The notes under the pieces: model-generated
The model's input: the letters and a program-made list of their open reading frames with translations, nothing else
The model's database searches: none
Told to the model about the DNA's origin: nothing
Origin: Squalus acanthias
Taxonomy: Eukaryota
Length of the DNA stretch: 64,000 bases
Assembly (NCBI GenBank): GCA_030390025.1
Contig: CM059452.1
Location: forward strand, 6,820,001-6,884,000
Reading direction: 5' to 3'
Part shown: in pieces, positions 1,270-40,513 of the stretch
How the letters are laid out: every line of letters begins with the position of its first letter
How positions within the stretch are numbered: position 1 is the first letter of the stretch
Translations under genes and position numbers: made by a program

Positions 1270-3490
1270 TAAGGACATCTCCTCTGGGCTGGAGTGGAAC
1301 TTGGAGTGGGAGGGGGAGGATCCAGTTGGCATGGTCCACGTAGGCACCAATGACATAGGTAGGACCAAGAAAGAGATTCTGCTGAGAGAGTATGAGCAGC
1401 GAGGGGCTAAATTAAAAAACAGAACCACAAATGTAATAATCTCTGGATTACTACCTGAGCCACGAGCGAATTTGCATCGGGTAAATAAGATCAGAGAAAT
1501 GAATGAGTGGCTCAAAGACTGGTGTGGGAGAAATGGGTTTCGATTTGTGCGGCACTGGCACCAGTACTGGGATAAGAGGAAGCTGTTCCGTTTGGACGGG
1601 CTTCACTTGAATCTTGCTGGGGCTAGAGTCCTGTCGAATCGAATAACTGGGGCTGTCGAGAGGGCTTTAAACTAAATAGAGCGGGGGGGGGGGGCGGAGG
1701 TTCCATGTGAGCGGGAATTTTAAAAGTCAATGAGAAATTAGAAAACAATAGAGCAGGATAGAGATGGGAGAAATAATAACCAGAGTGTGACAGGAAGGGA
1801 CAGAATGTTTACAAATAAGAGTGCAACAGAAAATGGGCCAAAACAAGGAGAAATGGTGAAAAGACAAAGTTAAAAGCTCTATATCTAAATGCACGCAGCA
1901 TTCGTAACAAGATAGATGAGTTGATGGCACAAATAGATACAAATGGGTATGATCTGATCGCCATTATAGAGACGAGGTTGCAAGGTGACCAGGGCTGGGA
2001 ACTGAATATTCCAGGGTATTTGACAATTCGGAAGGATAGACAGAAAGTAAAGGGAGGTGGGGTGGCTTTGTTGGTAACGGATGGGATCAGTGCAGTAGTG
2101 AGAAGTGATATTGGCTCAGAAGATCAAGATGTAGAATCGGTTTGGGTGGAGATAAAAAATAATAAGGGGAACAAGTCTCTGGTTGGCGTAGTTTACAGGT
2201 CCCCGAACAGTAGCAATACTGCTGGACAGAGTATAAATCAACAAATAATAGAGGCCTGTAAAAAAGGTACGGTAATAATCATGGGTGATTTTAATCTCCA
2301 TATTGATTGGATAAATCAAAGTGGCCATGGTAGCCTTAAGGAGGAGTTCACAGAGTGTATCCGGGATGGTTTCCTAGAACAGTATGTAATGGAACCAACC
2401 CGGGGGCAGGCTATCTTTGATTTGGTACTGTGTAATGAGACAGAATTAATAAATGATCTCATAGTAAAGGATCCTCTAGGAAAGAGTGATCACAGCATGG
2501 TTGAATTTCAAATTCAGTTGGAGGGTGAGAAAGTTGTCTCTCAAACCAATGTCCTGATCTTAAACAAAGGCAATTACAATGGCATGAGGGCAGAACTGGC
2601 TAAAGTGGACTGGAAAAAAAAGGGTAAGACAGTTGAAATGCAGTGGCGGACATTTAAGGAGATATTTCATAACTCTCAACAAAAATACATTCCAGTGAGA
2701 AAGAAAGATTTTAAGAGAAGGGAGCACCAGCCGTGGCAAACCAAGGAAGTAAAGGATAGTATCAAATTGAAAACGAAGGCATACAATGTTGCCAAGATTG
2801 GTGGGAGGCCAGAGGATTGGGAATTTTTTAATAACCAGCAAAGGATTAGTAAAAAAAAATAAAGAGATAGAAGATGAATTATGAGAGTAAACCGGCAAGA
2901 AATATTAAAACAGATAGTAAGAGCTTCTACAGGTATATAAAAAGGAAGAGAGTAGCTAAAGTAAACGTTGGTCTCTTAGAGGATGAGACTGGGGAATTAA
3001 CAATGGGGAACGGGGAAATGGCAGAGACTCTGAACAAATATTTTGTATCTGTCTTCACTGTGGAAGACACTAACAACATCCCAATAATGGATAATCAAGG
3101 GGCCACATGGAGGGGGGAACTAAAGACAATCACTATCACTGAGGAAAAAGTACTTGGTAAAATAATGGGACTAAAAGATGACAAGTCCCCTGGACCAGCT
3201 GGCCTGCATCCCAGGGTCTTAAAAGAAGTGGCTGCAGAGACAGTGGATGCATTGGTTGCAATTTACCAAAATTCCCTGGACTCTGGAGAGGTCCCAGCGG
3301 ATTGTAAAACCGCAAATGTAACGCCCCTATTTAAGAAAGGAGGAATACTGAAAGCAGGAAATTATAGACCAGTTAGCCTAACATCTGTCGTTGGGAAAAT
3401 GCTGGAGTCCTTCATTAAGGAAGCAGTAGCAGGGCATTTGGAAAATCATAATGCAGTCAAGCAGAGTCAGCATGGTTTTATGAAAGGGAA
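1270..3490 (+). mobile_element. CR1-type LINE fragment (ORF1 esterase, ORF2 APE endonuclease and start of RT), frameshifted, truncated at both ends
   Basis: VHVGTND...DGLHLN (1301-1675); APE motifs MGDFN, DLVL, SDH (1921-2862); KSPGP...NYRPVSLTS...QHGFMKGK (2874-3490), then similarity stops. Confidence 0.9.
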
Positions 3491-4149
3491 AACACAAACG
3501 GAAGCACGTACGTGCACAAAAAAGTCAGGCTATAGACGAATGTAGAATTAAAATGCTCTTTTTACGGACACAGTCTCCAGCGGTTGTACTGAATAATTAA
3601 TTCCTGATACCATAGCATCTCACATTTCTCTATTCTGGTCCTACTCATATACTGAATCACTGTTCTTGTTGGAAACTGATAAAAGTTAATTATGTTCAGA
3701 GCATTGACATAACAAATGAATAAACAAGATTTTAACTCACATCTGGTCTCTTACCCAGCCCCCTTGACAGTCTCCAAATAAGTAGATATCTAAACCTATC
3801 GTTAAAATAATCAATATCAATCAGTAAAGCTCCCTCGATATTTTATCATATTATTCCCGAATGATAGATCGTACCAACTTGATGCAAAATCAATCAGAGT
3901 GTGACATTGAAGAAAAAAATGTCATATTTTCCAACACGGCCTATAGGAGGATCATAAAGGAAGAGCGACTGTGGAGTTCGGAACAGAGATAGATTGCTGA
4001 GAGAGATTAACTTAACACAAGACATACATTGAAAATTAAATTAGAGAAAAAGCTAATATCTTAAGGAAAAGAAAAGAATATATAATAGTAATATGATATC
4101 TTGGATTAATAAACGATCTGAATGTATTTCCTCCTCTACATCCCCGTAG

Positions 4150-4277
4150 ATTCCTCAGACCACATCTTGATTGAAGACTATGAGGAAGAGAGCGGCAACA
4201 TCTGGACAACCGCTTCCACATTCATCATCCTGTTCTTCCTGAGCATGTCCTACAGCGCTGCCCTCACTCTAGTGAAG
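4150..4277 (+). CDS. IGHM: Immunoglobulin heavy-chain transmembrane exon TM1 (IgM-like)
   Basis: AG acceptor at 4148-49, phase 1. Encodes (D)SSDHILIEDYEEESGNIWTTASTFIILFFLSMSYSAALTLVK with an acidic spacer and the CART motif (WTTASTFI.LF.LS..YS...TL.K). GTGAGA donor at 4278. Isotype is less certain than IgH identity. Confidence 0.9.
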
Positions 4278-4417
4278 GTGAGAAGATTCAATCCACTCAC
4301 ACTTCGATCTGACTGAAGCGGTTTGACAAATCTCTAAAAGTTTCATTGATAAAAACCCTGAGATAAATGCCCCAAACCACTAAATCTCTGCTTCATTCTT
4401 TTATCCCTCTTTTACAG

Positions 4418-4426
4418 ATCAAGTGA
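4418..4426 (+). CDS. IGHM: IgH transmembrane exon TM2 (cytoplasmic tail IK-stop, giving KIK)
   Basis: Polypyrimidine tract then TTTACAG|ATC AAG TGA, the typical two-codon M2 exon. AATAAA signals near 4490 and 4881. Confidence 0.85.
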   Translation: MK

Positions 4427-5324
4427 ACGGTTGAATTTCGGACGCCGTGGATTTTCCTCATCTGTTTATTAACATCTCTGTGTCCTGAAAATAAAATATA
4501 TCCTCTTGGTGATTCTCAGAGTCAAATGTCTTCAGTTAATAGATCCGAATCTGTAGCTGAGAAAATCATAACCGGGATTTCCGTCTCTCTGTTTGAAATG
4601 TGTGAGATAATCGTGGCTATAATAGAAATGTATCTCAGAGTTTCACTGTTGTTTGAATATTTCATGTGTAAATAAGTCACTTTTCTCGTTCCTAATTCAC
4701 AATTTTTCCCTTCCCTTTATGTAGAGCCCCTGTTTTCTCTCTGGTGTCTGTTACAGTTGTACAGATAACTGGCAGCTCAGACCGCCTGTGATCTGGTCTC
4801 AATGTGACGCTCTGTTGTTATATTCACTTTGTGTTAACTTTTTAAAAACTTCACTGTAAATTGTTCTCTGTGAAATTGTTAATAAATCTGGAATGACAAA
4901 TTGACTAATTTGGACTTAGCTGAATTCCTTTCTCCAAGGCTCCTCCACACCGCTCCATTTTCCCTATCACACTTTGTTTTATTTCTCTGACAAGGTATTT
5001 TTCACCCGTCCTGTCTGGGTTGTGTTTGAACCCAAGTCCCTTCGGTTAAGGAGCCACTGCGCCACCTAGTGCTCCATCAGAGTAAAGACACCTTTACCCC
5101 TGACTTTTTATGTCAAGACCCAGAGGCGGAATGACTGCACAGCGACCAGGCGCACCTCGCAGTCTCCTCTAATATTATGGTCTGTAACAGTCACATGCCA
5201 GGTTCTAATAAAGAGCAGGGCTCTGCTCCATCACAGTTTGATACATTACAGGACATGGCAGAGTAAATCTCCCTCTACACTGTTCCATCAAACACTCCCA
5301 CGGCAGGTACACACTTAGCATAGA

Positions 5325-6270
5325 AGCATAGAAGATAGGAGCAGGAGTAGGGCATTCGGCCCCTCGAGCCTGCTCCGACATTTAATGAGATCATGGCTGA
5401 TCATCCAAATTCAGTACCCTGTCCCTGCTTTCTCCCCATATCCCTTGATCCCTTTAGCCTTAAGAAATATATCAATCTCCTTCTTGAATATATTTAATGA
5501 ATTGGCCTCAACTGCCTTCTGTGGTAGAGAATTCCACAGGTTCACCACTCTCTGGTGAAGAAAGTCCTCCTCATCTCAGTCCTAAATGGCTTACCCCTTA
5601 TCCTTAGACTGTGACCTCTGGTTCTGGACTCCCCCGCCATCGGGAACATCCTTCCTGCATCTAGTCTGTCTAGTCCTGTTAGAATTTTATAAGTTTCAAT
5701 GAGATCCCCTCTCATTCTTCGAAATTCTAGCGAATATAAGCCTAATCGACCCAATCTCTCTTCATACATCATTCCTGCCATCCTAGGTATCAGTCCGGTG
5801 AATCTTCGCTGCACTCCCTCCATGGCAAGAATATTCTTCCTCAGATAAGGCGACCAAAACTGCACTCAATACTCAAGGTGTGATCTCACCAAGGCCTTGT
5901 ACAACTGCAGCAAGACATCCTTGCTCCTGTACTCGAATCCTCTCGCTATGAAGGCCAACATACCATTTGCCTTCTTAACCGCCTGCTGCACCTGCATGCT
6001 TACCTTCAGCGACTGGTGCACAAGGACTCCCAGATCTCGTTACACTTCCCCTTTTCCCAATCTATTGCCATTCAGATAATAATCTGTCTTCCTGTTTTTG
6101 CCACCAAAGTGGATAACCTCGCATTTATCCACATTATACTGCATCTGCCATGCATCTGCCCAATCACCCAACCTGTCCAAATCATACTGGAGTTTCTCTG
6201 CATCCTCCTCACAGCACACACGCCCACCCAGCTTTGTGTCGTCTGCAAACTTGGAGATATTACATCTAGT
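5325..6270 (-). mobile_element. CR1 LINE 3' fragment
   Basis: QFWSPYLRK..RRMRGDLIETYKIL..SRTRGH ORF2 C-terminus and a CR1 3' tail. Confidence 0.9.
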
Positions 6271-6399
6271 TCCCTCGGGGTCACAGCCCTGAGTCAGGGG
6301 TCACAGGCTGCACACACAGGGAATCTTTAGCGCTGAGCGGAGCATGGAGACTGCCCGTGACCTCTGACCCTCAGTGAATGTGAAAAACAGCCAATTGCG

Positions 6400-6700
6400 G
6401 TGCTCTGACATGCGAAAAGCATTGTGGCGTCATCCAGTGCAGGGCAAAGCGGTGACGGCCATGTTTGTGTGACGTACGGTGTGACGTGTGACTTCAATTC
6501 CCACAAAAGAAACGGTCTCCCTTTCTTAATAAAAAGGAGAAAATATGCGACAGAGATAAAGATACAGACAGCGATAATTGAAGCGGTTGGCGAGTTGCGC
6601 ATGTGCGAACAGTGCTCCCAGGGAGCAGCACGGCCCGTGGTCTACATTGGGCCTATTCTGGCCCGCTGTGCATTGTGGGAATCTCTGTCCTTCATGGCTG
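6400..6700. repeat. Interspersed repeat of unknown family; second copy at about 32717-33060
   Basis: Shared blocks GCGTCATCCA(G/C)TGCAGGGCAAA, CCATGTTTGTGTGACGT, TGCGCATGTGCGAA and ATTGTGGGA. Confidence 0.55.
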
Positions 6701-7786
6701 CTTAAATCACTGATAGGGTGTGAGCCAACTGAACCTCTGAATGGCAATTTATTACAGCCTCCCTCGGGGAAACTGCCACACAGTCAGAGTTCTCCTTACA
6801 GGCCAATAGCACTTGGTCAGATTTATTGCAGGTTAACTAACGCACGGAAGTTCAATGAGGCAGCCAGTGACCGGAACAGCAAGAATAGCGAAAGAGTTCA
6901 GAAATCTCTCTATTTTCTCCACAGATCTCCCGCAACATTCAACTAATTTTCTCTTTCATGTCCTCTCCCATTCGGTTGTGGGTTTCCAACACCTCTGTTT
7001 TCAAGCTTGGAAAGTGGCATCTAAATATAGTGAAACTAAAATAGAGTAATGGGTCGGAGGATTTCCCGAGCACCTCAATACATTAAGTACTTGGTTTTGA
7101 AGGAATACACGAGATGAAATAACACACACAGGCAGAATATGGGAACCAGATCCTGCCCCATTAACGGAGCGACCAGCAGGAGATTCCTGGCGCTGTCAGC
7201 AACCTCTTTCTCGGAGCTGATCTTAACATTATTCACTGACCTGTCTGCAGTTCCTGTTTATGGGAAGCTGGGTTAGAGCGGTTCTGAATTAATATGCCAT
7301 GCAGCAGTAAAGGTTTTATATCGTTAAACTAAAGACTGGAAGAAGAAAGTCCATACGATTAGTAAAGAGTGGAGACAAGGGATGAGAAGAGACAGGCAGG
7401 CCCGGAAATTGCATCAAAAGACAAAAGGTGAGTTGTGGCACCACAGACATGATTGCTGAAGTTCATTTTTAGTATAAATGCGAGTTGAAATCACAAACTA
7501 ATATAATTCGGCCAGGGGACCTCACCTGTTCTTGTTGAGTGCTGCGTTTTTTTGTACTTTTAAGGAGGTCCGTGTGACTCGCACTGTGAGGCTGAATTAT
7601 TGCTTCTGGTTATCGGTGTGAGAGCGCCCTCTCAGTGTGCGTTTTGGTACACTAGGGACGTTGAATAGTTACAATTAATGCTCATTGAGGTTCCTTCCAG
7701 ATATTGGGCTTCTGTTGGCCACTGCTTGAAGGAGTCTCCAGAACTCAGTTCTGCAGAAAACATTCCTGGTTTCCCATGGAAACAGA

Positions 7787-8895
7787 ATGAAAGTGAGAGT
7801 GATTGCCCTTGATATCAAGGCAGCATTTGACCGAGTGTGGCATCAAGGAGCCCGAGTAAAACGGAAGTCAATGGGAATCAGGGGGAAAACTCTCCACTGG
7901 CTAGAGTCATACCTAGCACAAAGGAAGATGGTTGTGGTGGTTGAAGGTCAATCATCACAGCCCCAGGACATCGCTGCAGGAGTTCCTCAGGGCAGTGTCC
8001 TAGGCCCAACCATCTCCAGCTGCTTCATCAATGATCTTCCCTCCAACATAAGGTCAGAAATGGGGATGTTCGCTGATGACTGCACAGTGCTCAGTGCCAT
8101 TCGCAACTCCTCAGATAATGAAGCAGTCCATGCCCGCATGCAACAAGACCAGGCAATGACTATCTCCAACAAGCGAGAGTCTAACCACCGCCCCTTGACA
8201 TTCAACGGCATTACCATCGCCAAATCCCCCACCATCAATATCCTGGGTGGGGGGGGGGGTCACCATTGACCCTAAACTTAACTGGACCAGCCACATAAAT
8301 ACTATGACAACAAGAGCAGGTCAGAGGCTGGGTATTCTGCGGCGAGTGTCTCACCTCCTGACTCCCCAAAGCCTTTCCTCCATCTACAAGGCACAAGTCA
8401 GGAGTGTAATGGAATACTCTCCACTTGCCTGGATGAGTGCAGCTCCAACAACACTCAAGAAGCTCGACACCATCCAAGACAAAGCAGCCCGCTTGATTGG
8501 CATCCTATCCACCACCTTAGACATTCACTCCCTCCACCACCGGCGCACCGTGGCTGCAGTGTGTACCATTTACAAGATGCACTGCAGCAACTCGCCAAGG
8601 CTTCTTTGGCAGCACCTCCCCAACCTGCGACCTCTACCACCTAGAAGGACAAGGGCAGCAGGCGCATGGGAACACCATCACCTCCAAGTTCCCCTCCAAG
8701 TCACACACCATCCTGACTTAGAAGTATATCGCCGATCCTTCATCGTCGCTGGGTCAAAATCCTGGAACTTCCTCCCAAACAGCACTGTGGCAGTACCTTA
8801 ACCACACGGACTGCAGCGGTTCAAGGCGGCGGCTCACCATTACCTTCTCAAGGACAATTAGGGACGCCCACATCCCATGAACGAATAAAAAAATA
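7787..8895 (+). mobile_element. Non-LTR retrotransposon (CR1/L2 group) RT 3' fragment
   Basis: [22 protein letters not shown] and FADD motifs; 3' tail ACGAATAAAAAAA. Confidence 0.9.
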
Positions 8896-9169
8896 CGGAT
8901 GACAGACAGATAGACGGATGGACGGACAGAACGAACTGATAACACGTTTTTATTTCTTTACGATATTATTTTTCTATTCCTCGGTTTATACACAGGGAGA
9001 CGAAGAGACAGGAAGAGAAAACAACAGATTAATGACTAGACATTAATATATAGACAGGTGGATATAGAGATACAGAAAGACAGAGAGACAGACAGTCTGA
9101 TAAATAACTGTGCAGGCAGAGACATCAATGAATGGAAGACAGTTGTGTAAATAGTGGAATGGACAGACA

Positions 9170-9700
9170 GACACAGATGTATAAATAAATAAACCAGCCA
9201 AATAACAACGTTGTCAGGCCCCAAACAACTAAAAGCCCAAACTCCACCATGGCCGCAGTCTCCCCACACTGGGAGCCCGCACTTCACCCGGTGCCTCCTC
9301 TCAGTTGCAGCTTTCGGACTGAAGGGGAGAATTTGAAGTGTTTCTGTCAGCACACGGAGTCCCGTCATTTCCTGAATCAAACCAAGAGCCAGGTTTCAAT
9401 CAGCTGCCAATGATCATTGTCGCTGTCTGTGTTTATCATCACTGCCCGCGGCCCCGGGACACAGGTTCCCGGACATCTGATCATCCGATCCCGGGAATGG
9501 ATTCTGTCTGACAGTTACCGGCCTCACCCACAATGTGATGGACAGAAATAAACCCTTCGATTGAAGATTATTCTTCAAAAGGATTCCCAGTTTAACTGTG
9601 TTTTGAAACCGATGCTCACGGTTAATGAGGAGTCGATTTTAGGGTGTTCTTGCTGATAAAAAATAATCCATTTTACAGCAATGAAAATCTGATACGATAT
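9170..9700 (+). repeat. Locus-specific ~500-bp repeated element; inverted copies at 29140-29590 and 61560-62200
   Basis: Three clearly alignable copies with the core CCA(C/T)CATGGCCGCAGTCTCCCC. Confidence 0.8.
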
Positions 9701-9764
9701 TGTCGCAATGTCACTACCTCAGAGTAATCCGTTAACGTCAGTTTACACTCGAACTATTTTCCCT

Positions 9765-12190
9765 GTGTCTATGACTGTGTTTATCTGTCTGTGTGTCTAT
9801 GTGTGTGTTTATCTGTCAGTGTGTCTATGTGTGTGTTTATCTGACTGTGTGTCTATATGTGTATTTACCTGTCTGTGTGTCTATGGGTATTTTTACCTGT
9901 CTGTGTGTCTATATGTGTGTTTATCTGTCTGTGTGTCTATGGGTATTTTTATCTGTTTGTGTGTCTATGTGTGTGTTTAGCTGTCTGTGTGTCTATGTGT
10001 GTGTTTAGCTGTCTGTGTGTCTATGTGTGTGTTTATCTGTCTGTGTGTCTATGTGTGTGTTTAGCTGTCTGTGTGTCTATGTGTGTGTTTATCTGTCTGT
10101 GTGTCTATGTATGTGTTTATCTGTCTGTGTGTCTATGTATGTGTTTATCTGTCTGTGTGTCTATGTATGTGTTTATCTGTCTGTGTGTCTATGTGTGTGT
10201 TTATCTGTCTGTGTGTCTATGTGTGTTTATCTGTCTGTGTGTCTATGTGTGTGTTTATCTGTCTGTGTGTCTATGTGTGTGTTTATCTGTCTGTGTGTCT
10301 ATGTGTGTGTTTATCTGTCTGTGTGTCTATGTGTGTGTTTATCTGTCTGTGTGTCTATGTGTGTGTTTATCTGTCTGTGTGTCTATGTGTGTGTTTATCT
10401 GTCTGTGTGTCTATGTGTGTGTTTATCTGTCTGTGTGTCTATGTGTGTGTTTATCTGTCTGTGTGTCTATGTGTGTGTTATCTGTCTGTGTGTCTATGTG
10501 TGTGTTTATCTGTCTGTGTGTCTATGTGTGTGTTTATCTGTCTGTGTGTCTATGTGTGTGTTTATCTGTCTGTGTGTCTATGTGTGTGTTTATCTGTCTG
10601 TGTGTCTATGTGTGTGTTTATCTGTCTGTGTGTCTCTGTGTGTGTTTATCTGTCTGTGTGTCTATGTGTGTGTTTATCTGTCTGTGTGTCTATGTGTGTG
10701 CTTATCTGTCTGTTTGTCTCTCTGTGTGTTTATCTGTCTGTGTGTCTCTCTGTGTGTTTATCTGTCTGTGTGTCTATGTGTGTGTTTATCTGTCTGTGTG
10801 TCTATGTGTGTGCTTATCTGTCTGTTTGTCTCTCTGTGTGTTTATCTGTCTGTGTGTCTCTGTGTGTGTTTATCTGTCTGTGTGTCTATGTGTGTTTATC
10901 TGTCTGTGTGTCTATGTGTGTGTTTATCTGTCTGTGTGTCTATGTGTGTGTTTATCTGTCTGTGTGTCTCTCTGTGTGTTTATCTGTCTGTGTGTCTATG
11001 TGTGTGTTTATCTGTCTGTGTGTCTATGTGTGTGCTTATCTGTCTGTGTGTCTATGTGTGTGTTTATCTGTCTGTGTGTCTATGTGTGTGTTTATCTGTC
11101 TGTGTGTCTCTCTGTGTGTTTATCTGTCTGTGTCTCTCTGTGTGTTTATCTGTCTGTGTGTCTATGTGTGTGCTTATCTGTCTGTGTGTCTATGTGTGTG
11201 TTTATCTGTCTGTGTGTCTATGTGTGTGTTTATCTGTCTGTTTGTCTCTCTGTGTGTTTATCTGTCTGTGTCTCTCTGTGTGTTTATCTGTCTGTGTGTC
11301 TATGTGTGTGCTTATCTGTCTGTTTGTCTCTCTGTGTGTTTATCTGTCTGTGTCTCTCTGTGTGTTTATCTGTCTGTGTGTCTATGTGTGTGTTTATCTG
11401 TCTGTGTCTCTATGTGTGTTTATATGTGTCTGTGTGTCTATGTGTGTGTTTATCTGTCTGTGTGTCTATGTGTGTGTTTATCTGTCTGTGTGTCTATGTG
11501 TGTGTTTATCTGTCTGTGTGTCTATGTGTGTGTTTATCTGTCTGTGTCTCCATGTGTGTGTTTATCTGTCTGTGTGTCTATGTGTGTGTTTATCTGTCTG
11601 TGTCTCCATGTGTGTGTTTATCTGTCTGTGTATCTATGTGTGTGTTTATCTGTCTGTGTGTCTATGTGTGTTTTTATCTGTCTGTGTTTCTATGTGTGTG
11701 TTTATCTGTCTGTGTGTCTATATGTGTGCCTATCTGTCTGTGTGTCTATGTGTGTGTTTATCTGTCTGTGTGTCTCTCTGTGTGTGTATCTGTCTGTTTG
11801 ACTATGTGCGTGTTTATTTGTCTGTGTGTCATGTCTGTGTGTCGGTAAACTCCACAATATGAAAACCATTGTGTGTTTCTGGGTTTATGTTGTCGTACTT
11901 ATGGCTATGTTTCTGCAGGTGTGTATATGTCTGTGAGTATATATACGTCTGTGTGCGTGTGTGTATGTATATATATATATGTCTGCGTGTATATATATGT
12001 CTGTGTGTATGTATATGTTTCTCTGTGTGTATACGTATGTGTGCGTATATACGTCTGCGTGTGTATTTATGCGTGTGTATCTGTCAGTGTGTATATATAT
12101 CAGTGTGTCTGTATATGTCTGTGTGTGTATATGCCTGTGTGTCTACGTGTGTCTGTGTGTGTATGCGTGTATGTCAGTGTACGTGCGTGT
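9765..12190. repeat. 28-bp TG-rich minisatellite (ATGTGTGTGTTTATCTGTCTGTGTGTCT)n grading into (TG/TA)n
   Basis: Direct tandem periodicity is visible; the long Cys/Val ORFs are by-products. Confidence 0.97.
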
Positions 12191-12423
12191 TTCCAATGCA
12201 CTACGTCAAGCTTGTACTGTCCGCAGGAGGGCGCTCTCTGATCACTTTACAAAGATCCTGATCCGCATCTGCAGGAAGTGACTGTTTCGAGAGGTGCAAA
12301 TGAGCGGGGAGAGGAAAGCCCAGCCGATCTGATGAGATCCCTGCGCTCTTCCAGTTTCTCCAATTCCAGGCCCGGTACAGGCAGTGATCACAGTCTCTTG
12401 TTTCTGGAGATCAGGCTGGAACC

Positions 12424-12895
12424 ATGGAGGTGAAACTCTGCCTAACTCTGGTTATTGTCCTGATCACAGGTCGGTGATATTGGAACCTTCCTATAACATT
12501 CTCCAATCCCCATCTCCATCTCCGGGTGATTATTCTCTTTCTGTTACTCTGTCTAACCCGCTGTGTGCCCGCTGTTTATTTTCAGAGGTGTGTGACGGAG
12601 ACTCGGTGTCCCAGTCAGAACAAGGAGTCGCATCAGAAGAGGGTTCAGATTCAACAATAACCTGCAGTTACTTTGTATCGGGTTCAGCTACAAGCTATAA
12701 CCTGTTTTGGTATCGCCAGTGTCCCCACAAAACCCCTCAGTATCTGAGCAGAGCCGATAGTTATGGGAATAACGAGACAGCTCCGGGCTTTAAACACTTC
12801 AGGGGGAATCCCAACCTGACACAAGGCACTTTTCACTTATCCATGAAAGGCTTGAAGGTCACAGACAGCGCCGTGTATTACTGTGCCCTGAGACC
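12424..12895 (+). CDS. TCR alpha/delta V segment, intact (leader 12424-12469, V exon 12586-12895)
   Basis: Leader MEVKLCLTLVIVLIT; V DSVSQ..TITC..LFWYRQ..DSAVYYCALR; RSS CACAGTG-23-ACAACAACA (12896-12934). Confidence 0.92.
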
Positions 12896-13389
12896 CACAG
12901 TGAATAAGGGTCCCTCGGCCCTCATACAACAACAGGTCGGCATAGGGGAAGGAGGGTGAGATGGGATGGGTTGTCGTGCTTCACCTCAGGAAAATACCAG
13001 GGATTGACTCCCCGTGGGGTTATACAGAAAATGAATGGGAAAATACAGCCTGATCCGATCAGGTTTCTCCAGTTATGTCAGTGCTGTCAGTGTTGGGATA
13101 AGAGAAATTTCTCAACCATTTTAAGCCAGTGTGAAATTCAGACATTTCCACCACACTGTTAGCACAGATCTTCAGATCTCTGGGACGAATAACGGGTTAA
13201 ATCTCTACAAGCAGGTGTCCTGGGTGTGGTGAAGATCCGTCAGGCCCCATTTTTAAAAGCTATCTCACCGGTGCAGAGGGCTTTCCACTTGTCATGTCCC
13301 TCGTAGTCTTGGGGCTTCGACAAGTTAATCGAGCTCATTTGCTGTGGTGGGAAATAAGTGATACCGGGGATTGAATTGATTTATATTAT

Positions 13390-13655
13390 TTTTCGCTTTT
13401 CACCTTACTGAGAGAGAGAAGAAACGAGAGAGAAGGAATGAGAAAGTCACAGAGTTAAACAAAGTAAGTGACACCGAAACAAAGACAGAGAGAGAGAGAT
13501 GGAGAGAGAGAGAGAAAAGGAGAGAAAAAGACACCGAGTTAAATAGAGTGAGCGACAGCGAGACACAGATATAGAGAGAGACAGAGAGCGACAGAGAGAG
13601 GCAGAGAGCGACAGAGAGAGAGAGAGAGACAGACAGAGGGAGCGAGAGACTCACT
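13390..13655. repeat. GA-rich simple repeat
   Basis: (GA)n/GACA runs. Confidence 0.8.
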
Positions 13656-13898
13656 CACAAAGCTAGGGAAGGAAACGGTTTGTCGGGAGACATCAGTAAT
13701 TGTTCCACAACTAAGACCGATTGGTGCACTGCTGGTGTCAGTTCTGAGAGATCAGCCAATCCTGTCCCTGGGAAACGCCCCTCAGTCTCCCAATAAGTGA
13801 AGACTGTCCCTGATCTGAGTTTATTCTTTAATATCAGACTAGAAGGGCGAACATATTTAAAATGACACTATTTCCTGTCTAATTCTAAACCAGACACC

Positions 13899-14330
13899 AT
13901 GTGCTCCCCGTGTTCCATACTGATAATAATGGTCGTGCTTTCCGGTGAGTACATGCGTAAATGGTCATTGTGTGTTTCACGGATTTTCCTTACTCCCAGA
14001 CTTTTGACACATTCTGTGTTTTGTTACAGGAACGAGTGGCAAAGAATCAGTGTCCCAGGATCCGTCTGAATTAACGGTTCAGGAAGGACAGACCATAATA
14101 TTGAACTGCAGTTACTCGGCAGCTGCTCCAACTCTGTTCTGGTACATCCAGTATCCCGGGGAAGCTCCGAGATATTTACTGAGGATATATAGCTCGGGGA
14201 CGGTAGACCGGTCTCCAGATTTCCCAGGCCGGTTCTCTGCTGTTTTGCACAGAGACAGCAAAACGGTTCCTTTAAATATCACCGCGGTTCTTGTCACCGA
14301 CAGCGCCGTGTATTTCTGTGCCATGAGCCC
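13899..14330 (+). CDS. TCR alpha/delta V segment, family A, intact (leader 13899-13944, V exon 14030-14330)
   Basis: ILNCSYS..LFWYIQYPGE..DSAVYFCAMS; RSS CACACTG-24-ACAAAAACC (14331-14370). Confidence 0.92.
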
Positions 14331-14395
14331 CACACTGCTGCAGAGATATAGCGGATCCCGTACAAAAACCCACACTGAGAGTTCCAGTTAGTGAT

Positions 14396-14410
14396 CACCA
14401 GAGGGCGCTC
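14396..14410 (+). promoter_or_regulatory. CTCF-type motif about 25 bp downstream of the RSS nonamer
   Basis: CACCAGAGGGCGCTC matches the CTCF core; it recurs at the same offset after related Vs. Confidence 0.7.
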
Positions 14411-14614
14411 TCACCCCGATAAGCAGCAGCGATAATTCAGCCTCCACAGTGAGAGTCACAGGGAGATTCTTAACAGAGCGACAAGTCACAACACTCAACT
14501 AAAACAGGTCAGGTCCACTTGGGGATTTTTTAGGTGATTTCAACTCGTATTCATAATAAAAATGAACTTCACAAATCATGTCTGTGGCGTCTTAACTCCC
14601 CTTTTGTCCTTTTT

Positions 14615-15133
14615 CTATTGTGTACATTTCTGGGCACCACACGTTAGGAAGGATGCCAAGGCCCTGGAGAGGGTACAGAGGAGGTTTACCAGGATGATAC
14701 CAGGGATGAGGGACTTCAGTTATGTGGAGAGATTGGAGAAGCTGGGATTGTTCTCCTAAGAGCAGAGAAGGTTAAGGGGAGACCTAATAGAAGTATTCAA
14801 AATTATGAGGGGTTTTGACAGAGCAAATAGGGAGAAACTATTTCCTCTGGCAAGTGGGTTGATAACCAAAGGGAATAGATTTAAAATAATTGGAAAAAGA
14901 ACTAGAGGGGAAATGAGGAGACATTTCTTCACAAAGAGGGTTGTTAAGATCTGAAAGGCAATGCCTGAAAGGGTGGTGGAATCAGATTTCATGGGAACTT
15001 TCAAAAGGCAATTGGACATGTACTTGAAGAGGACTAATTTGCAGGGTTATGGAGAAAAAGCTGGGATATGGGACTAAACAGGCACGACAGGCCGAAAGCC
15101 CCCTTCTGTGCTGTAAGATTCTATGAATCTATG
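14615..15133 (+). mobile_element. CR1 LINE 3' fragment
   Basis: HFWAPHVRKD..LERVQRRFTRMIPG and a (TTCTATGAA)-type tail. Confidence 0.85.
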
Positions 15134-15683
15134 ATGCCCATTCCGTGCCTGCCTGCAATATTGTGCAGCCCTTTACTCATCTCCCCTGTCAGTTTCCCGG
15201 ACCCTTTGTTCGCGGACTGTACACAGGGTTTATTTGATCAGAGTATGTTGCTGGGTCAGAGACAGTTTATACACAATGAACAGATTTCACAAGGTAGTGA
15301 TTGTGCTCTTTAAAACAGGCCCCAAGCACAGAGTTCCCCCAATGTCCATTGTCCTTCAGAATGTCTCTTTAATGCTGGAATATGTTCCGTCACCATTAAC
15401 AATCTCTCAGCTTCCGGGTTCCAATAACCAGGCAAGAGTTTCATTCCCACCCCCGGTCTCTAAAAGCGGAACCATTCCCCCAAAAGGACACTGACGATAG
15501 CCCAGCTCAGGGTGTTTCCATTCACTGGCAGCCAGCTCACCACCTACCGGTCTCACAGCACCACTGGGGACACAAGGAAGTGAGGTGAGAGCATCCTGAG
15601 ACACGACAGCAGATTATTGAGGGCGGGGATTAGAACGGGTGTCTTCAAATATCCAACCCCCTTTTACAGAGCGGACAGCGACA

Positions 15684-16159
15684 ATGCGGCTACTCAGCAT
15701 CTGGGCTGTGTGGGGGGCATTTCTGACAGGTAATTGTGGACCAAACACATTTCATCTTTTCTATCATTTCTAAACATGGTTTGACTCTGAATTTTAAACA
15801 CCCGCCGGTCTGATCTTTTCCAGTTTGAACATGTTTTTCAGATCTGAGTCTTGGAGATTCTGTCACTCAGCCGCTGTCCTCAGGAGTTAAGACAGAAGGA
15901 GAAGCGGTGACTGTAAACTGTAGCTATGACACTAAATGGAGCACCTTTAATTATTTATATTGGTACCGGAACCACCCAGACACACAGCCCGAGTTTATAC
16001 TGTGGAAGGATCATGATGGTGTTGATGGTGTTGAGCATAAAGCAGATTTCGATAAAACCCGTTTCTCTGCAGAAATCCAGACCTCGACTAAATTCACCAG
16101 TTTAACCATCTCGGGGCTGCAGCTGACCGACACTGCAGTTTATTACTGCGCCCTGAGAC
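15684..16159 (+). CDS. TCR alpha/delta V segment, intact (leader 15684-15729, V exon 15842-16159)
   Basis: Leader MRLLSIWAVWGAFLT; DSVTQ..VNCSY..LYWYR..DTAVYYCALR; RSS CACACTG-23-ACAGAAACT (16160-16198). Confidence 0.93.
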
Positions 16160-16947
16160 CACACTGATGGAAACCAGTTAAACCCTGGTACAGAAACTCC
16201 CGCCGCTTTGTAGATCAGAGGCTCCGCCTGCTGAAGCCGGATATGAGGCTCACTTTGTGCTGTTTGCGGTTCCGGCCATCCTGAGAACTGTTCCCAAAGT
16301 CTCTCATTTGTCGGTTGTGTTCAGTCTGTGCAGTTTCCGGGTTGTTTTCCCTGTTACTCACTGGGAACTGTCTCTCCTGAATCACTGCCACCTTCATCTT
16401 CAGACTATTGGCTGTTGCTCTTTTGCCTGTTTTCTGGACAGTTTTCTCTGAGTTTGCGCACCAGCTGGGGAATGGGAATCTCGCGGGGTCACAGTTCAGC
16501 CGAGACTTCTTTGTTCTGAAGGTGTTTGACTCCTCAATGGTTTATTACATCGTCACTGAATGTGTTCCCTCCGTTCAGTTCATTTCCTGCCGACTGGAGC
16601 GCCAGGTTTGAGTGCGATTCTGACACGGAATGAGAACTGGTTTATATTTGTTTCACTAAGTTTGAAAGTTGAGGTGCCCATTACATGAAAAGGGTTTGGA
16701 AGCACCGTCTCATCGAATATCTATTATGAAATTAGCAGCACGATTATTTTTATTAATAATAAGCATGATGTTTCCTGTTCTGTACTGTCAATTGGATTGT
16801 TGCTGATTTCTCTCTTTTTATATCGACACTCTCCTGTGAGAAGTACTGAGAGTCCCCGTTTCTCACCACACTGCCCGCTCTCCACTTGTCCCTGTCATAT
16901 TCCGGCAGTGTGTTTGTACGCGGCTCCCTCTGGTTCCTGTCACTGTG

Positions 16948-17474
16948 TCTCTCAGCCCGCAGTGATACACCACGCTGTCAGACAGCAGCAGGCCGCCGAT
17001 GGTGAAATTCCTCTCACTTTCTGAAATGTCGAGAGATGCGGAAATTCGAGCCCCCGTGCCCTCTGCTTTGGAAACATCTCCGTAGGAAGGGATATAGATC
17101 AGCAATGTGGGCCCATTGTCGCGGTTCTGACGGTACAGTTGTAAGGAATGTGAAGTAGCAGTGGTCGAATAGCTGTAATTGATGGTCACCGAGTCACCTT
17201 CAAACTGCATCGCTGCAAGCGGCCCCTGTGAGACCGAGTCCGCACAACTAACACCTACATAAATATAGAAATACAGCACTTTTAACTTTTAATAGCATTT
17301 TTTTGAATAACTAATAGAATCAAGGTGACGGAATATACAGGAAATAGAGAGAAAATACAGGTAAAAGGAAGATTCTCTACGGCAGCCACAAGAGAGAAGA
17401 TTGTGTAATTTGTAAACTTTACCAGTTAAGAGAGCCGCAGCTGTGACGAATGAATAAAAAGTAACTCCTAACAT
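16948..17474 (-). CDS. TCR V segment, open frame but non-canonical (Cys23->Tyr, Trp41->Leu); leader 17474-17423, V exon 17254-16948
   Basis: DSVSQGP..VTINYSY..LQLYRQ..DSVVYHCGLRD; RSS CACAGTG-23-ACAAACACA (16947-16909). Confidence 0.85.
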
Positions 17475-18156
17475 GTTTGCAGAGAGTTGATGACAGATTT
17501 GAACAGAACAGGTTAAACCTGAAATATTTTAGTCAAGACTTGGGAAGATGTTGAATGATATCCGGCGTCCCTGCCGATTGGTTCATTCCTGACAGAGTCA
17601 ACAGGTGAGATCCAAGCAGCCCACAGCTCCTTTTTACTCCAGTTCTTCCAATCAACTCACAGCTGCTTTCTTCTCCAATTCACCCACTCAGCTCATAGCT
17701 CCTTTGTTCGCCACTTCATGACGTCTGTGGTCAAACTGCTCTTGCTTGCTGAGCAAGCGACTGGGAAGAAATAGAGTGAGAGCGTAATTAAGCGATTACA
17801 CCGCATCAGAAATAATGAGTGGCTTTCATCAGCTATAATCTTGCTCTTTGAGAGTCAATAGCTGGCAATCGTGTTTTTATATATGACCAAAAACCCTAAA
17901 TCCCCTCAATGCCCTCATTCTAAGCCCAATGTTACACCATGCACAAGCAGAAGGCGCCAAACCCAAGAATGGTAATTAGAAAGTCACGTGATGCAAACGC
18001 CAAAGCCAATAGCAATCGAAGCCTGAGTGAGGTCACAATGGGGCCGCCCCCTGCAGTGTGTGGGTGGAACAATGAGCTGAACAGCCCGGGTTACCGCTCT
18101 CCTTCTCAATCTCTGCCTCATTCAATTCCAAGTCACGGTGAGAGATTCAGTCAGAC

Positions 18157-18676
18157 ATGTTTCTAATAATACTGGCGGCTGTGTTGAACAGTAAGTATTG
18201 GATTATATTAAAAACACAGGTTAGCTGGTTGATGCAAAGAGCGTGTGCAGGGATTTAGTACAATTACCGATCAGAAATATCCACATGATGGACAGCTGCG
18301 TAGATGGAGGGTTACCCACTCTCATACAGATAGACACACGTTTCGATTTAATCTTCTGCTCTTCTGTTCCCCTATGTTCACAGGCGGACTATGTGTAGAC
18401 CCAGTAACTCAGTCTCCGGTGACAATCGCCGTGTCAACAGGGGGTTCGGTGCAGTTAGATTGCGAATATAAAAGCCCGGTTATTGACTACATGCAATGGT
18501 ATCGGCAAAAACCGTCACAGCCTCCAAGCTGGATAATTAGCAAAACAGTAGCACTGAAGGGAGTCGAAATCTCAGGACAATATCTGGCGGCTGCTAACAC
18601 GTCTAGAAAGTACGGTTACCTCAATATAAGCAGCCTGAGTGTGGAGGACGGGGCGGTCTATTACTGTGCAGTGAGG
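18157..18676 (+). CDS. TCR alpha/delta V segment, intact (leader 18157-18190, V exon 18384-18676)
   Basis: DPVTQSP..QLDCEY..MQWYRQKP..DGAVYYCAVR; RSS CACAGCG-22-ACAAAAACC (18677-18714). Confidence 0.92.
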
Positions 18677-18819
18677 CACAGCGTCTGAAAAAGCAAAGGC
18701 CCCGTACAAAAACCTCAGCGAGAATTTACAGCTCCATTATGTGTTCTTCTGTGCTGTTATCTGTGGGGTTAATTTGATCCCAAACCCACGGAGATAATAG
18801 ACTATTAGGTTTCTATATC

Positions 18820-19188
18820 ATTCCTGTCTGTGCCTTTGTCCAAGTCAGCGGAGAACCGCTCTGGGAAATCTGGAGACGTGTCTCCCTGCACCGAGATGTA
18901 TCTCCTCATTAAATATCTCGGATCATCCCCGGGGATACTGGTTGTACCAGAAGAGGTAGGGAAATCTATCGGCTGTGGAGTAACTAGTGTTCAGTATTAA
19001 GATCTGTCCTTCCTGAACCGTTAAATCAGGTGGATCATGTGTTAATGAGGCTTCGCCATTGTAACAAAATACAGAATCTGTCAAAAGTCTGGGAGTAAAT
19101 ATAACCCATGAAATACATACGTTCCTTTAAACATAGACTCACCGGGCAGCACGACCACTAATATTAGTGAGGAACATGGGGAACACAT
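18820..19188 (-). pseudogene. Family-A V pseudogene (leader and V up to FR3, acceptor lost, no RSS)
   Basis: The reverse complement aligns to 13899-14260 (leader MCSPCSSLILVVVLP, TTAACGGTTCAGGAAGGACAG, TTCTGGTAC), with a stop, indels and 3' truncation. Confidence 0.8.
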
Positions 19189-19568
19189 GGTGTCTGGTTT
19201 AGATGGGAGGCTCCGGCACCAGAACAACATTAACTATTGCCCTTCACTGCTCCTCCTCACAGACTGTCGCTGCTAAAGGGCGAAAAATTTCACTCCGTTC
19301 TATGATCCCCGCTCTGACGTCATGAATTGGCGAACAAAGGAGCTGTGAGCTGATTGGTTGAATTGGAAAACAAAGGAGCTACAAACTGATTGGATGAATT
19401 GGAGAACAAAGGACCGAGAGCTGATTGAATGTGATCTGCTGACCCTGTCGGGAACGGACCAAACGGCAGAGAGACCGGATATTACTCAACTTCTTCCCAA
19501 TTCTTGACTACAAGACAATTTCAGCTTCAAACCGTTCTGTTAAAATCCACCATCAACTCTCTGCAGAC

Positions 19569-19620
19569 ATGTTGGCTGTTACTTTTTATTTACTCGTCAC
19601 AGCTGCAGCTTTCTTAATTG
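19569..19620 (+). other. Orphan V leader exon with its promoter (same family as the 17474 and 51621 leaders)
   Basis: MLAVTFYLLVTAAAFLI-G|GTAAGT; upstream TGACGTCA and ATTGG boxes; its cognate V exon is absent. Confidence 0.75.
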
Positions 19621-20176
19621 GTAAGTTCACAAGTTACACAGCATTGTGTTTCTCATCTGTATCATACATTATATTTAATCGGTCAGTTCCCATAACTCTT
19701 GAATATCAATAGGTTGATCCGAAGTGAAGAAAACTATCTGGATCCCATTTGACTCAACACTGAACACTGTTTGGGGAAACTCGACAATCTCCCTCAGTGA
19801 ATGAAAGCGGATGAGTTGAGGTGAGATTAAAGGCGAATGGCAGACAGACCCAACCGTCCCGCCGGAGCCAATGACGGACATTGACAGACACATGAGTCTT
19901 AATCCCACAGACAGTTTGGAGTTTTCCCTTCACATCACAAGAGGTGAAGGTGAGGAACTGATCCCGTTGGAAGGTGCTGAAGGTTCATTAAAGGAACTTT
20001 TATTCAGTCCATCCAAGCACGTTCCCGTTGCAGCCCCTGAGCTGTGGGGATATATATTTATGTTTAACTGCCCTGATTTGCTTTTCAGGTAAGTGTTGGG
20101 GGTGACAGGTTGATTCTGGGGGGTAAACACAGTGAAGTGACATTGTTTAATTTAGTATCGCTCTGGGCTCTTGCAG

Positions 20177-20483
20177 GATATTGTCGAGGAGATTCCGTTT
20201 CACAGACACCGGCTGCAACCACAGTCAGCGAAGGAGACGATGTTCAGTTGCACTGTAATTATAAAGCTACAAGCACCAGCACTCCTGAACTATTCTGGTA
20301 CCGTCAGTATCCCAGCGGATCCATAGAGTATCTGCTACAGAGAAACAGATTTGGCGAGAATGGAGGGAGATTTCCAGGGGACCGTTTATCAGCGAAGGTC
20401 GATGATGGGAGCCGAACCGTCCCGCTGAATGTGTCTGAAACACAACTGACAGACTCCGCGGTGTATTACTGCGCACTGAGCCC
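20177..20483 (+). CDS. TCR alpha/delta V exon, open; its own leader (~20043-20088) lacks an in-frame ATG
   Basis: DSVSQTP..QLHCNY..LFWYRQYP..DSAVYYCALS; RSS CACAGAG-23-ACACAAACT (20484-20522). Confidence 0.88.
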
Positions 20484-20719
20484 CACAGAGACACGGAGCT
20501 GGGCTGGACCTGTACACAAACTGTCAGAGCGTCGCTCAACATATCAGCGCGTCAGGGGAACATTGTGATCAGGGGCGAGTCTCAGCTGGTCCCTGTATTT
20601 ATGGTTAGAACTTGTACTGTTAATTCTAATACGTATTTCCTTTTATTAATCATTCATATATAATAAAATTTACACTGCAGTTACACGAGTAAAGTAAGAA
20701 ATAAAGAGAATTGCTAGAG

Positions 20720-21112
20720 TGCCTTTCACGACGTCCCCAATTGCTTAACAGCCAATGAAATACTTTTGAAGATCAGTCACGGCCCAGCAGCATCACACAA
20801 ACAGTGACGTCATAATGACTAGATAATATGTTTTAGTGATGTTGATCGAGAGATTAACATTGACCAGGACAGCAGGAAAACTCCGCTGCTCTTTTTAGAA
20901 ATATTGGGATCTATTACGTCCTCTTGAGAGGACAGACAGGGCCTCAGGTTAACGACTCGTCCGAAAGACGACACCTGCGACAGTGCAGCACTCCCTCAGG
21001 ACTCACATCGGGAGGGTGGGCCTAGCATTCTGTGCTCAAGTCTCTGGAGTGGGATTTGACCCCACAACCTTCTGACTCAGAGGCGAGAGTTCTACAAACG
21101 GAGCCACGGCTG
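20720..21112 (-). mobile_element. tRNA-derived SINE (SacSINE1/DeuSINE-like); partial second copy at 58750-59070
   Basis: tRNA-like head on the minus strand (GCCGTGGCTC...CTGAGTCAGAAGGTTGTGGGTCAAATCC); tail shared with the 58750 copy. Confidence 0.65.
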
Positions 21113-22048
21113 ATACCTGGTATTTGTAGATTAGACCTTAAACTTTTCATTGTTATTCATATTTAACTTTATTAATAATATATGCAGGTAGATGAGTGAA
21201 AGGCTTTCATAGAGGTAACCAGGCTGCTGACTGAGAGACAGATGGACAGCGGCCTGTTTGGGCCTCGGTCGCTTGTTCTCCCTGAGCAGGGGACCAGTTT
21301 GTATTCGGGTTCCCACAGTGCGGAGACACAGAGAAAGGAATCACTGGACACCGGGTAATGCAGGAGGAGAAACATACTGACTGTCTGGAGCCTGTGCACA
21401 AAGGTCACGAGCATCTGGCGCCAGTAGAACTGAAAGGAAATGAAAGTCAGTTGTTGTGAATGTGGGTTGTGAGTTGTTGTTTATTTTGCGGATCAGAAAG
21501 GGTTAAATCTGCGAGCGCAAGCTGTCAATTTCCAAGCTCGAATTCATCTGATTAATGTTTCTGTCATTGTAAGTGTTGATATACAAGGCTCTACATTCAC
21601 CATCAGCATCACCACAATAGAGTCTCGCAATAAATGGGCACTGGAAACTGCCCATAGATACACTGACTGTCTGTTTTCACCCAGGATCGCAAAAGTGTAA
21701 AAGTTCCCATTATATCCGCCAGAGGGCGCCGTGCTCATATGTTTCTCGCTGCTTCCTTCGCACTTAGTCCCATGTTATTCATGATATGTCGAAAACCATC
21801 AACATTTCAAACCTGTTTATATTTGTGTTGTGTTCCTGGTGTTCAGTAAAATACCTCCCCTCCCTCTTGTTCTGTCTTGTTTTCACCGTCACAATCTCTC
21901 TCCACCGCTCTTATGAATGATTTCCTTATACTGCAAATCTTAAAGCAACTGCAAAGTGACATTTTTGGTAGTTTTGTAAAGCTGCAGTTTGAAAAAAATC
22001 TCTTATATATTAAAATATGTAATGGACGACACACTCAGAGGGACAGAT

Positions 22049-23602: not shown

Positions 23603-24031
23603 CGGCTGTATCGCACAGTAATACACCGCGGTATCCGCGCTCTCCGTGCTCTCAATGACCAATTGGCCGCGTTTGTCCGCAGTGGAAAGATCCAATTCAA
23701 ATCGGTCCCTTCTCTGTTTGCCAGCTGATGCCCGCATTATTACCCACTCCAGTCCCTGACTGGGTCTCTGTTTGTACCAGTGCATGGCGTAAATGCTGGA
23801 CATGTCATAGCTGCAGTTTATCTGCACCGAATCCCCGCTCCGGACTGTTATCGCAGCGGGAGACTGCAGCACTTGGTCCGAGAGACATCGACCTGTAAAA
23901 AACATGCAGATAATAAAACACTGGAGCAACGTGAAAAAAAACACTGCGGGTTATTGAGCACAGCTCCTGTACCTACATGGTAGCAGCACCAGAATAACGA
24001 GTGATACATTCACTTGTACCGAGAAATACAT
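23603..24031 (-). CDS. TCR alpha/delta V segment, intact (leader 24031-23977, V exon 23892-23603)
   Basis: Leader MYFSVQVNVSLVILVLLP; DQVLQSP..QINCSY..MHWYKQRP..DTAVYYCAIQ; RSS CACACTG-23-ACAAAAACC (23602-23564). Confidence 0.92.
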
Positions 24032-40500: not shown

Positions 40501-40513
40501 CTACTTTAATATA

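What the first reader, a model, noticed from the sequence alone, without database searches (positions are those of the whole stretch)
4150..12934. An IgH (IgM-like) gene ends only ~8 kb from a TCR alpha/delta V array: a hybrid Ig/TCR locus
Seen: intact TM1 and TM2 exons of a membrane IgH with good splice sites and polyA signals, followed about 8 kb later by the first of ~22 TCR-type Vs. Established: cartilaginous fish IgH genes are small V-D-J-C clusters, and shark TCRdelta can use IgH-type V segments. Inference: this is the physical junction of an IgH cluster with the TCR alpha/delta locus. Minus-strand 23-RSS Vs here face left and + strand Vs lie downstream of the cluster. If the 5' RSS of the cluster's D is a 12-RSS, either set could in principle join it. 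That raises the less-described reciprocal chimera of a TCR V on an IgH constant region, as well as IgH V joining to TCRdelta.
Basis: partly seen in the sequence, partly recalled or inferred. Interest (0 to 1): 0.8.

Follow-up and report, generated by a model that had tools for sequence, protein, structure and literature searches.

The report
Orphan antibody tail amid T-cell genes
The membrane-anchor exons of a shark IgM antibody gene sit here without the rest of their gene, inside a 4-megabase stretch where antibody clusters and T-cell receptor V segments are shuffled together (a layout already published for other sharks), and just upstream lies a T-cell receptor V domain that is already joined in the genome, likely by RAG activity in germ cells.

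Summary
In detail: intact IgM-type TM1/TM2 exons lie 8.0 kb before the first intact V of 22 TCR alpha/delta-type V loci. The reading mostly fails. No CH, JH, D or VH lies upstream. IgM homology starts abruptly at window 3492, fused to a truncated CR1 LINE, and this breakpoint recurs in three paralogous copies. The site is not a single junction but one tile of a ~4.4-Mb mosaic of IgM clusters, TCR Vs and NARTCR cassettes. Cdelta and Calpha lie on a separate scaffold that begins with the same mosaic. This layout is published for four elasmobranchs (PMC12227049). TCR V to IgM D joining is RSS-compatible at neighbouring clusters, but 0 of 42 JH segments carry a TCR V; no transcripts could be tested. 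The best by-product lies 15 kb upstream: an in-frame, germline-joined NARTCR VDJ. Of 23 J-bearing NARTCR Vs, 11 are pre-joined (5 junctions). Such a gene is labelled once in that paper's Table S1, so it is under-described rather than unknown. The scan's earlier notes held nothing on this.

The parts
1870..3491 (+). CR1-type LINE ORF2 (endonuclease into RT), frameshifted and cut off inside the RT domain; start approximate; the CR1 label is recalled from the motifs
   Evidence: translation; IgM homology starts only after it
3492..5258 (+). IgM-derived remnant: last 0.66 kb of the CH4-TM1 intron, TM1, TM2 and 3' UTR; no CH exon
   Evidence: 94.6% identical to complete IgM cluster B over 1781 bp; same LINE/IgM breakpoint in 3 copies
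4150..4277 (+). IgM TM1 exon, intact, phase-1 acceptor
4419..4427 (+). IgM TM2 coding part (IK-stop); AATAAA at 4490, 4881, 5207
6272..8347 (+). 3' flank shared with complete cluster B (97.6%), showing that TM-then-TCR-V is a duplicated unit
7656..7748 (-). 5' fragment of a TCR alpha/delta V
   Evidence: tblastn 84% identity over 31 aa
9764..11840 (.). 28-bp minisatellite, about 75 copies
   Evidence: TRF
12424..12469 (+). leader exon of the first intact TCR V
12586..12895 (+). first intact TCR alpha/delta-type V exon
   Evidence: best single-domain PDB match is a TCR alpha V, behind multi-domain antibody constructs
12896..12934 (+). 23-bp-spacer RSS of that V
12424..63763 (.). mixed-orientation array of 21 further V loci counting the one at 12586 (11 on +, 10 on -), many pseudogenes; end approximate
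   Evidence: a representative V matches fish proteins named TCR alpha/delta V; V families from the neighbouring stretch recur on the Cdelta/Calpha scaffold

Best explanation
The TM1/TM2 exons are the orphaned 3' end of an IgM cluster, joined to a truncated LINE behind a NARTCR cassette and likely silent, inside a ~4.4-Mb field where IgM clusters, TCR alpha/delta Vs and NARTCR units are interleaved, likely by repeated segmental duplication. Inferred steps: an IgM cluster was fused behind a NARTCR supporting Vdelta at a 67-bp minisatellite, losing VH, D and the JH RSS. It then lost CH1-CH3 (type I copies) and, in this copy's lineage, CH4 too through a LINE-mediated deletion (type II copies), and the unit was duplicated. 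The TCR Vs around it most likely act as ordinary distal V alpha/delta segments that rearrange to the single D-J-Cdelta and J-Calpha set on scaffold C911, using the IgM clusters only as neighbours. The whole field appears exposed to RAG in germ cells, which would explain the pre-joined IgM clusters and the pre-joined NARTCR Vs, including the one 15 kb upstream of this TM.
For: No CH, JH or VH hit in C29 6.785-6.825 Mb. blastn of two complete clusters matches only from window 3492 on. The identical LINE/IgM breakpoint occurs at C29 6.823, 7.339 and 9.015 Mb, and those units are 96-97% identical across it. On C29 5.9-10.3 Mb, 11 of 40 TM1 pattern hits have no CH4 pattern hit within 12 kb (pattern with at most 1 mismatch, so some CH4 may be missed). 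At least 9 of 17 full supporting Vdelta copies are followed by a same-strand IgM remnant. Type I remnants have an RSS-less JH and altered CH4 exons: a 1-bp deletion at the exon start, a lost stop, a Tyr-to-Asp change. The only Cdelta found is at C911:583 kb and a Calpha-like TM at 784 kb. Before them lie 13 IgH-like Vs, one D and many J, and an IgM CH1-TM plus TCR Vs open that scaffold. The same order is tabulated for stingray and catshark (PMC12227049 Table S1). Germline joining: 26 of 37 VH-bearing IgM clusters and 11 of 23 J-bearing NARTCR Vs. Introns are kept, so this is not retroposition, and one junction is shared by 5 diverged copies.
Against: The orphan TM1 is better conserved than its IgM-derived flank among the three type II copies: 2 of 129 against 84 of 1628 variable columns, one-sided p 0.04, a post hoc test. 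However, the LINE side of the same copies differs by only 0.1-1.7%, which predicts 0-2 exon changes without selection and points to exchange with intact clusters. Splice sites and polyA signals are intact. C911 is unplaced, so cis-linkage of this window to Cdelta is not shown in this assembly. No read-level check across 5-12 kb or across the joined NARTCR junction was obtained.
Confidence: 0.88

Rival explanations
1. The orphan TM is used: the pre-joined NARTCR VDJ 15 kb upstream splices past the supporting Vdelta onto TM1 (or onto CH4 in type I copies), giving a membrane single-domain VNAR-like receptor with an IgM anchor.
For: Same strand; the J donor and the TM1 acceptor are both phase 1, so the splice would be in frame. 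Leader, donor and TATA-like box are intact in 4 of 6 joined copies. The NARTCR-then-IgM-remnant arrangement recurs at least 9 times, and TM1 conservation is slightly above its flank.
Against: Phase 1 is general for Ig exons (established knowledge). An intact Vdelta acceptor lies in between. CH4 in type I copies is altered, and the TM1 donor is lost in the 6.90-Mb copy. Of the five copies sharing the joined junction, those at 8.20 and 8.60 Mb are followed by TCR Vs, not an IgM remnant. TM1 conservation fits the LINE-based age of the copies.
Confidence: 0.06
2. One reading: TCR Vs of this array rearrange somatically to D segments of neighbouring complete IgM clusters and give TCR V on Cmu chains.
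For: TCR V RSS have 23 spacers and IgM D 5' RSS have 12. Minus-strand Vs face cluster A's open D2-J 12-RSS (C29:6775174) in deletional geometry, the nearest intact one about 20 kb away; plus-strand Vs could reach cluster B by inversion. IgH loci are RAG-accessible in nurse shark thymocytes (PMC2435157, passages).
Against: It cannot involve this TM, which has no D or J. 0 of 42 JH show a TCR V joined, although 26 of 37 clusters record germline joins. PMC2435157 reports rearrangement only within a minilocus and no Ig transcripts in thymus. No report of such chains appeared in search, but the key papers are not held.
Confidence: 0.12
3. The TM-to-V adjacency or the missing CH exons are assembly errors in a repetitive region.
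For: The region is rich in near-identical duplicates and minisatellites, Cdelta is on an unplaced scaffold, and no read-level test was obtained.
Against: The breakpoint is shared by three diverged copies. TM followed by a TCR V within 3-9 kb recurs at 7.92, 8.06 and 10.27 Mb and on C911. The flank is collinear with cluster B at 96.6-97.6%.
Confidence: 0.04

Closest known systems
Elasmobranch antigen receptor complex, AgRC (Flajnik et al. 2025, PMC12227049; abstract, sections 4, 6, 15 and all of Table S1 read)
   Same: IgM miniclusters with TCR alpha/delta Vs and NARTCR between them; truncated IgM ('missing V', 'C only', 'pseudo'); IgH-like Vs, then Cdelta, then Calpha at one end; one great white gene model labelled 'NARTCR V(gj)V(gi)V'.
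   Different: That work lists gene models. Here the layout is resolved to exons and RSS, with counts of germline joins and a recurring NARTCR plus IgM-remnant unit. IgW, IgNAR, PSMB5 and UrIg2 linkage was not examined here.
NARTCR, the doubly rearranging TCR delta (features as summarised in PMC1845163 and PMC3457774, passages; the primary paper PMC1458790 is not held)
   Same: NAR-type V with leader, a-b loop Cys and no Trp in the WYRK position; its own D and J; leaderless supporting Vdelta with CDR1 Cys and a 23-RSS.
   Different: Both Vs are described as somatically rearranged. Here 6 of 23 J-bearing N-terminal Vs are fully joined and 5 are V-D joined in the assembly.
Germline-joined shark Ig genes made by RAG in germ cells (Lee et al. 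2000, PMC2193156, passages)
   Same: Split, partly joined and fully joined copies side by side; trimmed ends, possible P nucleotides, introns kept.
   Different: Described for IgL and IgH; here it extends to a TCR segment. One single-copy junction has at least 13 GC-rich untemplated-looking bases, whereas that paper saw little sign of TdT in light-chain joins.
Marsupial TCR mu with germline-joined V (PMC3457774, passages)
   Same: Three-domain TCR chain with one pre-joined V.
   Different: In TCR mu the supporting V is pre-joined, probably by retrotransposition. Here the outer, presumed antigen-binding V is pre-joined, introns are kept, and the supporting V still has its RSS.

Membership tests
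Functional IgM minicluster (this TM) | VH, D1, D2, JH upstream on the same strand | tested here: not met
   none in the 40 kb upstream; no JH pattern hit on + between 6.670 and 7.189 Mb
Functional IgM minicluster (this TM) | CH1-CH4 exons upstream | tested here: not met
Functional IgM minicluster (this TM) | IgM-type TM1/TM2 with splice sites | tested here: met
   1 of 129 positions differs from cluster B, which has four CH exons and a secretory tail; its CH4 matches Cmu and IgA chains in the PDB
Elasmobranch AgRC | TCR alpha/delta Vs and NARTCR lie between IgH clusters | tested here: met
Elasmobranch AgRC | IgH-like Vs, D-J-Cdelta and J-Calpha linked to IgM | tested here: met
   on C911: IgM at 0.1-14.8 kb, 13 IgH-like Vs at 447-519 kb, D at 558 kb, Cdelta at 583 kb, Calpha-like TM at 784 kb
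Elasmobranch AgRC | This window is in cis with Cdelta/Calpha | tested here: inconclusive
   no Cdelta match on C29; C911 is a separate scaffold whose start resembles C29 10.26-10.28 Mb at 92-96%; DAD1 is on C8 and did not help
Elasmobranch AgRC | Linkage to IgW, IgNAR, PSMB5, UrIg2 | not tested
   not searched
NARTCR (unit upstream of the window) | N-terminal V is NAR-type with leader, a-b loop Cys, no Trp in WYRK | tested here: met
   top PDB matches are VNARs, E 2e-22; features from PMC1845163
NARTCR (unit upstream of the window) | Leaderless supporting Vdelta with CDR1 Cys and 23-RSS | tested here: met
   C29:6813608-6813913, open frame, consensus RSS
NARTCR (unit upstream of the window) | Expressed as a V-V-Cdelta chain | not testable with these tools
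   no run on record as RNA holds the stretch
Germline-joined antigen receptor gene | RSS-bearing spacer DNA absent, frame open, introns kept | tested here: met
   6 copies in frame, 4 with an intact leader donor
Germline-joined antigen receptor gene | Present in non-lymphoid DNA of independent animals | tested here: inconclusive
   one junction is shared by 5 diverged genomic copies; one search listed no contig bridging it, and no closer read check was obtained
TCR V on IgH constant chimera | 12/23-compatible RSS in usable geometry | tested here: met
   at clusters A and B, not at this TM
TCR V on IgH constant chimera | Joined TCR V-DH-JH in DNA or RNA | tested here: not met
   0 of 42 JH in the assembly; somatic joints and transcripts untested

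The most novel reading that the evidence does not exclude
The pre-joined NARTCR VDJ needs no recombination and splices straight onto the orphan IgM TM exons, making a germline-encoded, light-chain-free VNAR-type surface receptor with an antibody anchor: a TCR-derived V on an IgH tail, built by duplication rather than by trans-rearrangement.
Probability: 0.06. Interest if true: 0.8.

Novelty: new member of a known kind. Interest (0 to 1): 0.35.

Why it matters
The IgM/TCR adjacency confirms a published layout and shows at base level how it arises: duplicated, partly deleted IgM and NARTCR units within one V field. The more useful result is that about half of the NARTCR outer Vs are pre-joined, in at least five separate events. 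If expressed, these would give gamma-delta T cells a fixed, innate-like antigen-binding domain. They also make germ-cell RAG activity on a TCR locus testable with single-junction PCR.

Tried and rejected
Junction-of-two-loci model: rejected, Vs lie on both sides. CH exons upstream: none. RAG join of the supporting Vdelta to the remnant JH in type I units: rejected, that JH has no RSS in 5 of 5 copies. Germline fossil of TCR V on JH: 0 of 42. Retroposition as the origin of joined NARTCR: rejected, introns are kept. Expression: no RNA holder listed; a guessed-RNA run gave only thin unspliced cover and the lay was swamped by repeats, so nothing follows either way. One search showed one contig in DNA run X1 joining the NARTCR D region to J sequence, a possible D-J allele, not followed up. 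Gene models of other sharks cannot show germline joining: several CDR3s look like read-through of RSS heptamers. DAD1 as a marker to place C911 was uninformative. The supplement search of PMC3964593 found no NAR-TCR term in the one file held; its Note XI may not be held. Five primary papers are not held (PMC7909615, PMC7039070, PMC1458790, PMC3222143, PMC7708420). Earlier scan notes: none relevant. Four more divergent NAR-like hits were not examined, and that search scored 40 of 46 candidates.
Full report
Observation. The window is G000:C29:6,820,001-6,884,000. TM1 (4150-4277), TM2 (4419-4427) and three AATAAA are as described. The first intact V begins 8.0 kb later. tblastn with V domains taken from the surrounding 264 kb finds 22 V loci, 11 per strand, and RSS hits exceed shuffles 18 to 0.8. 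A representative V matches fish proteins named TCR alpha/delta V; the PDB search with the first V was less clear, with multi-domain antibody constructs ahead of the first TCR alpha V.

What lies upstream. I fetched 110 kb before and 90 kb after the window. The 40 kb before TM1 hold TCR Vs, a NARTCR V-D-J, a second NARTCR V, a leaderless supporting Vdelta, a 60-bp minisatellite and LINE sequence, and no VH, D, JH or CH. Two complete IgM clusters lie nearby on the minus strand, A at 6.760-6.776 Mb and B at 6.941-6.960 Mb. Against them, homology starts at window 3492, directly after a LINE cut inside its RT domain. The same breakpoint occurs at 7.339 and 9.015 Mb. The TM is therefore an orphan, and the breakpoint is older than the duplications that copied it.

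The wider field. TM1 and CH4 patterns place 40 and 30 hits on C29 5.9-10.3 Mb; 11 of the 40 TM1 have no CH4 hit within 12 kb. NARTCR Vs span the same interval. No V was found at 5.88-5.96 or 10.323-10.40 Mb. I read about 0.75 Mb of the 4.4 Mb, chosen around hits. The only Cdelta match is on scaffold C911, which carries IgM CH1-TM and TCR Vs at its start, then 13 IgH-like Vs, one D, J segments, Cdelta, further J segments and a Calpha-like TM (30-440 kb and 610-770 kb not read). This matches the order in Table S1 of PMC12227049 for stingray and catshark, and that paper's text states that TCR alpha/delta-type Vs lie between IgH clusters.

How the orphan arose (inferred). At least 9 of 17 full supporting Vdelta copies are followed by a same-strand IgM remnant; for three of the others less than 10 kb downstream was read. 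In five copies the remnant starts at a JH without RSS, abutting a 67-bp minisatellite; the three aligned in full lack CH1-CH3 but keep CH4 and TM. In three, including this one, only TM remains. This reads as one fusion, stepwise deletion and segmental duplication.

The reciprocal chimera. It cannot use this TM. At neighbouring clusters the RSS are compatible and both deletional and inversional geometries exist. IgH loci are cut by RAG in nurse shark thymocytes but rearrange within a minilocus and are not transcribed there (PMC2435157, passages). All 41 JH pattern hits plus one more were inspected: 37 have a VH upstream (11 split, 17 partly joined, 9 fully joined), 5 are the RSS-less remnants, none has a TCR V. 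Somatic joints remain untested.

Germline-joined NARTCR. The second NARTCR V upstream (C29:6,809,207-6,809,548) runs in frame from V into J, with leader and donor intact, 4 kb before an open supporting Vdelta with a consensus 23-RSS. Of 26 NARTCR Vs examined, 12 are split, 5 V-D joined (3 junctions), 6 fully joined (2 junctions) and 3 lack a J. One junction is shared by five copies at 86-99.8% identity with flanks; on a tree they fall together with weak support, 80/53. Two of the five have lost the leader donor. One V-D junction has two bases palindromic to the D end, and the single-copy VDJ at 9.032 Mb has a D core and at least 13 GC-rich extra bases. Introns are kept. These are the marks of RAG joining described for shark IgL germline genes (PMC2193156, passages). 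Single-copy joins could be somatic if the assembly came from lymphoid tissue; shared, diverged ones cannot easily be. Some copies on small scaffolds may be alleles.

Prior mention. Searches found no main-text description of germline-joined NARTCR or of TCR V on Cmu. But Table S1 of PMC12227049 labels one great white model 'NARTCR V(gj)V(gi)V', where I read gj as germline-joined, and five primary papers were not held. Also seen as passages: PMC3964593, PMC5931798, PMC3457774, PMC1845163, PMC6795676.

Verdict. Real observation, orphan TM, known kind of locus. The added value is the exon-level anatomy and the count of pre-joined NARTCR Vs. Interest 0.35.

Noticed in passing
G000:C29:6809207-6809548 (L002:9207-9548) and 5 other copies: In-frame germline-joined NARTCR VDJ; 11 of 23 J-bearing NARTCR Vs are partly or fully pre-joined.
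   Followed up: yes
G000:C29:6813914-6815981 (L001:3914-5981): The supporting Vdelta RSS is amplified as a 60-bp minisatellite, about 34 copies, 33 perfect heptamers but only 3 with a good nonamer; 10-42 copies in four other units.
   Followed up: partly
G000:C29:8867939 and 6887425: Split NARTCR Vs whose 3' end carries the D core sequence just before the V RSS while an own D remains downstream; V 3' ends and J 5' ends vary widely among split copies, as if cut and rejoined in the germline.
   Followed up: no
G000:C29:6775129-6775593 (cluster A): IgM cluster joined as VD1 and D2J, leaving one open 22/12 pair; an insertion follows the TM1 donor.
   Followed up: partly
G000:C29:6959777 (cluster B): VH is frameshifted in an otherwise complete, fully split IgM cluster.
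   Followed up: no
G000:C911:446655-519387: 13 tandem IgH-like Vs with 23-RSS directly before a single 12/23 D delta; several are identical at a 22-kb period, a recent duplication or assembly repeat.
   Followed up: partly
window 9537-9760 (-): Decayed V-like stretch ending in a weak 23-RSS; no tblastn hit at E 1e-4.
   Followed up: partly
G000:C29:6898607-6902897: Two orphan TM1 copies in opposite orientation 4 kb apart; the plus copy has lost its donor; a similar opposed pair lies on C559 at 164-170 kb.
   Followed up: no
G000:C130 and C29 16.6-18.2 Mb: CH4 pattern hits come in pairs about 4 kb apart on C130, and further IgM-like hits lie at C29 16.6-18.2 Mb and on C3.
   Followed up: no
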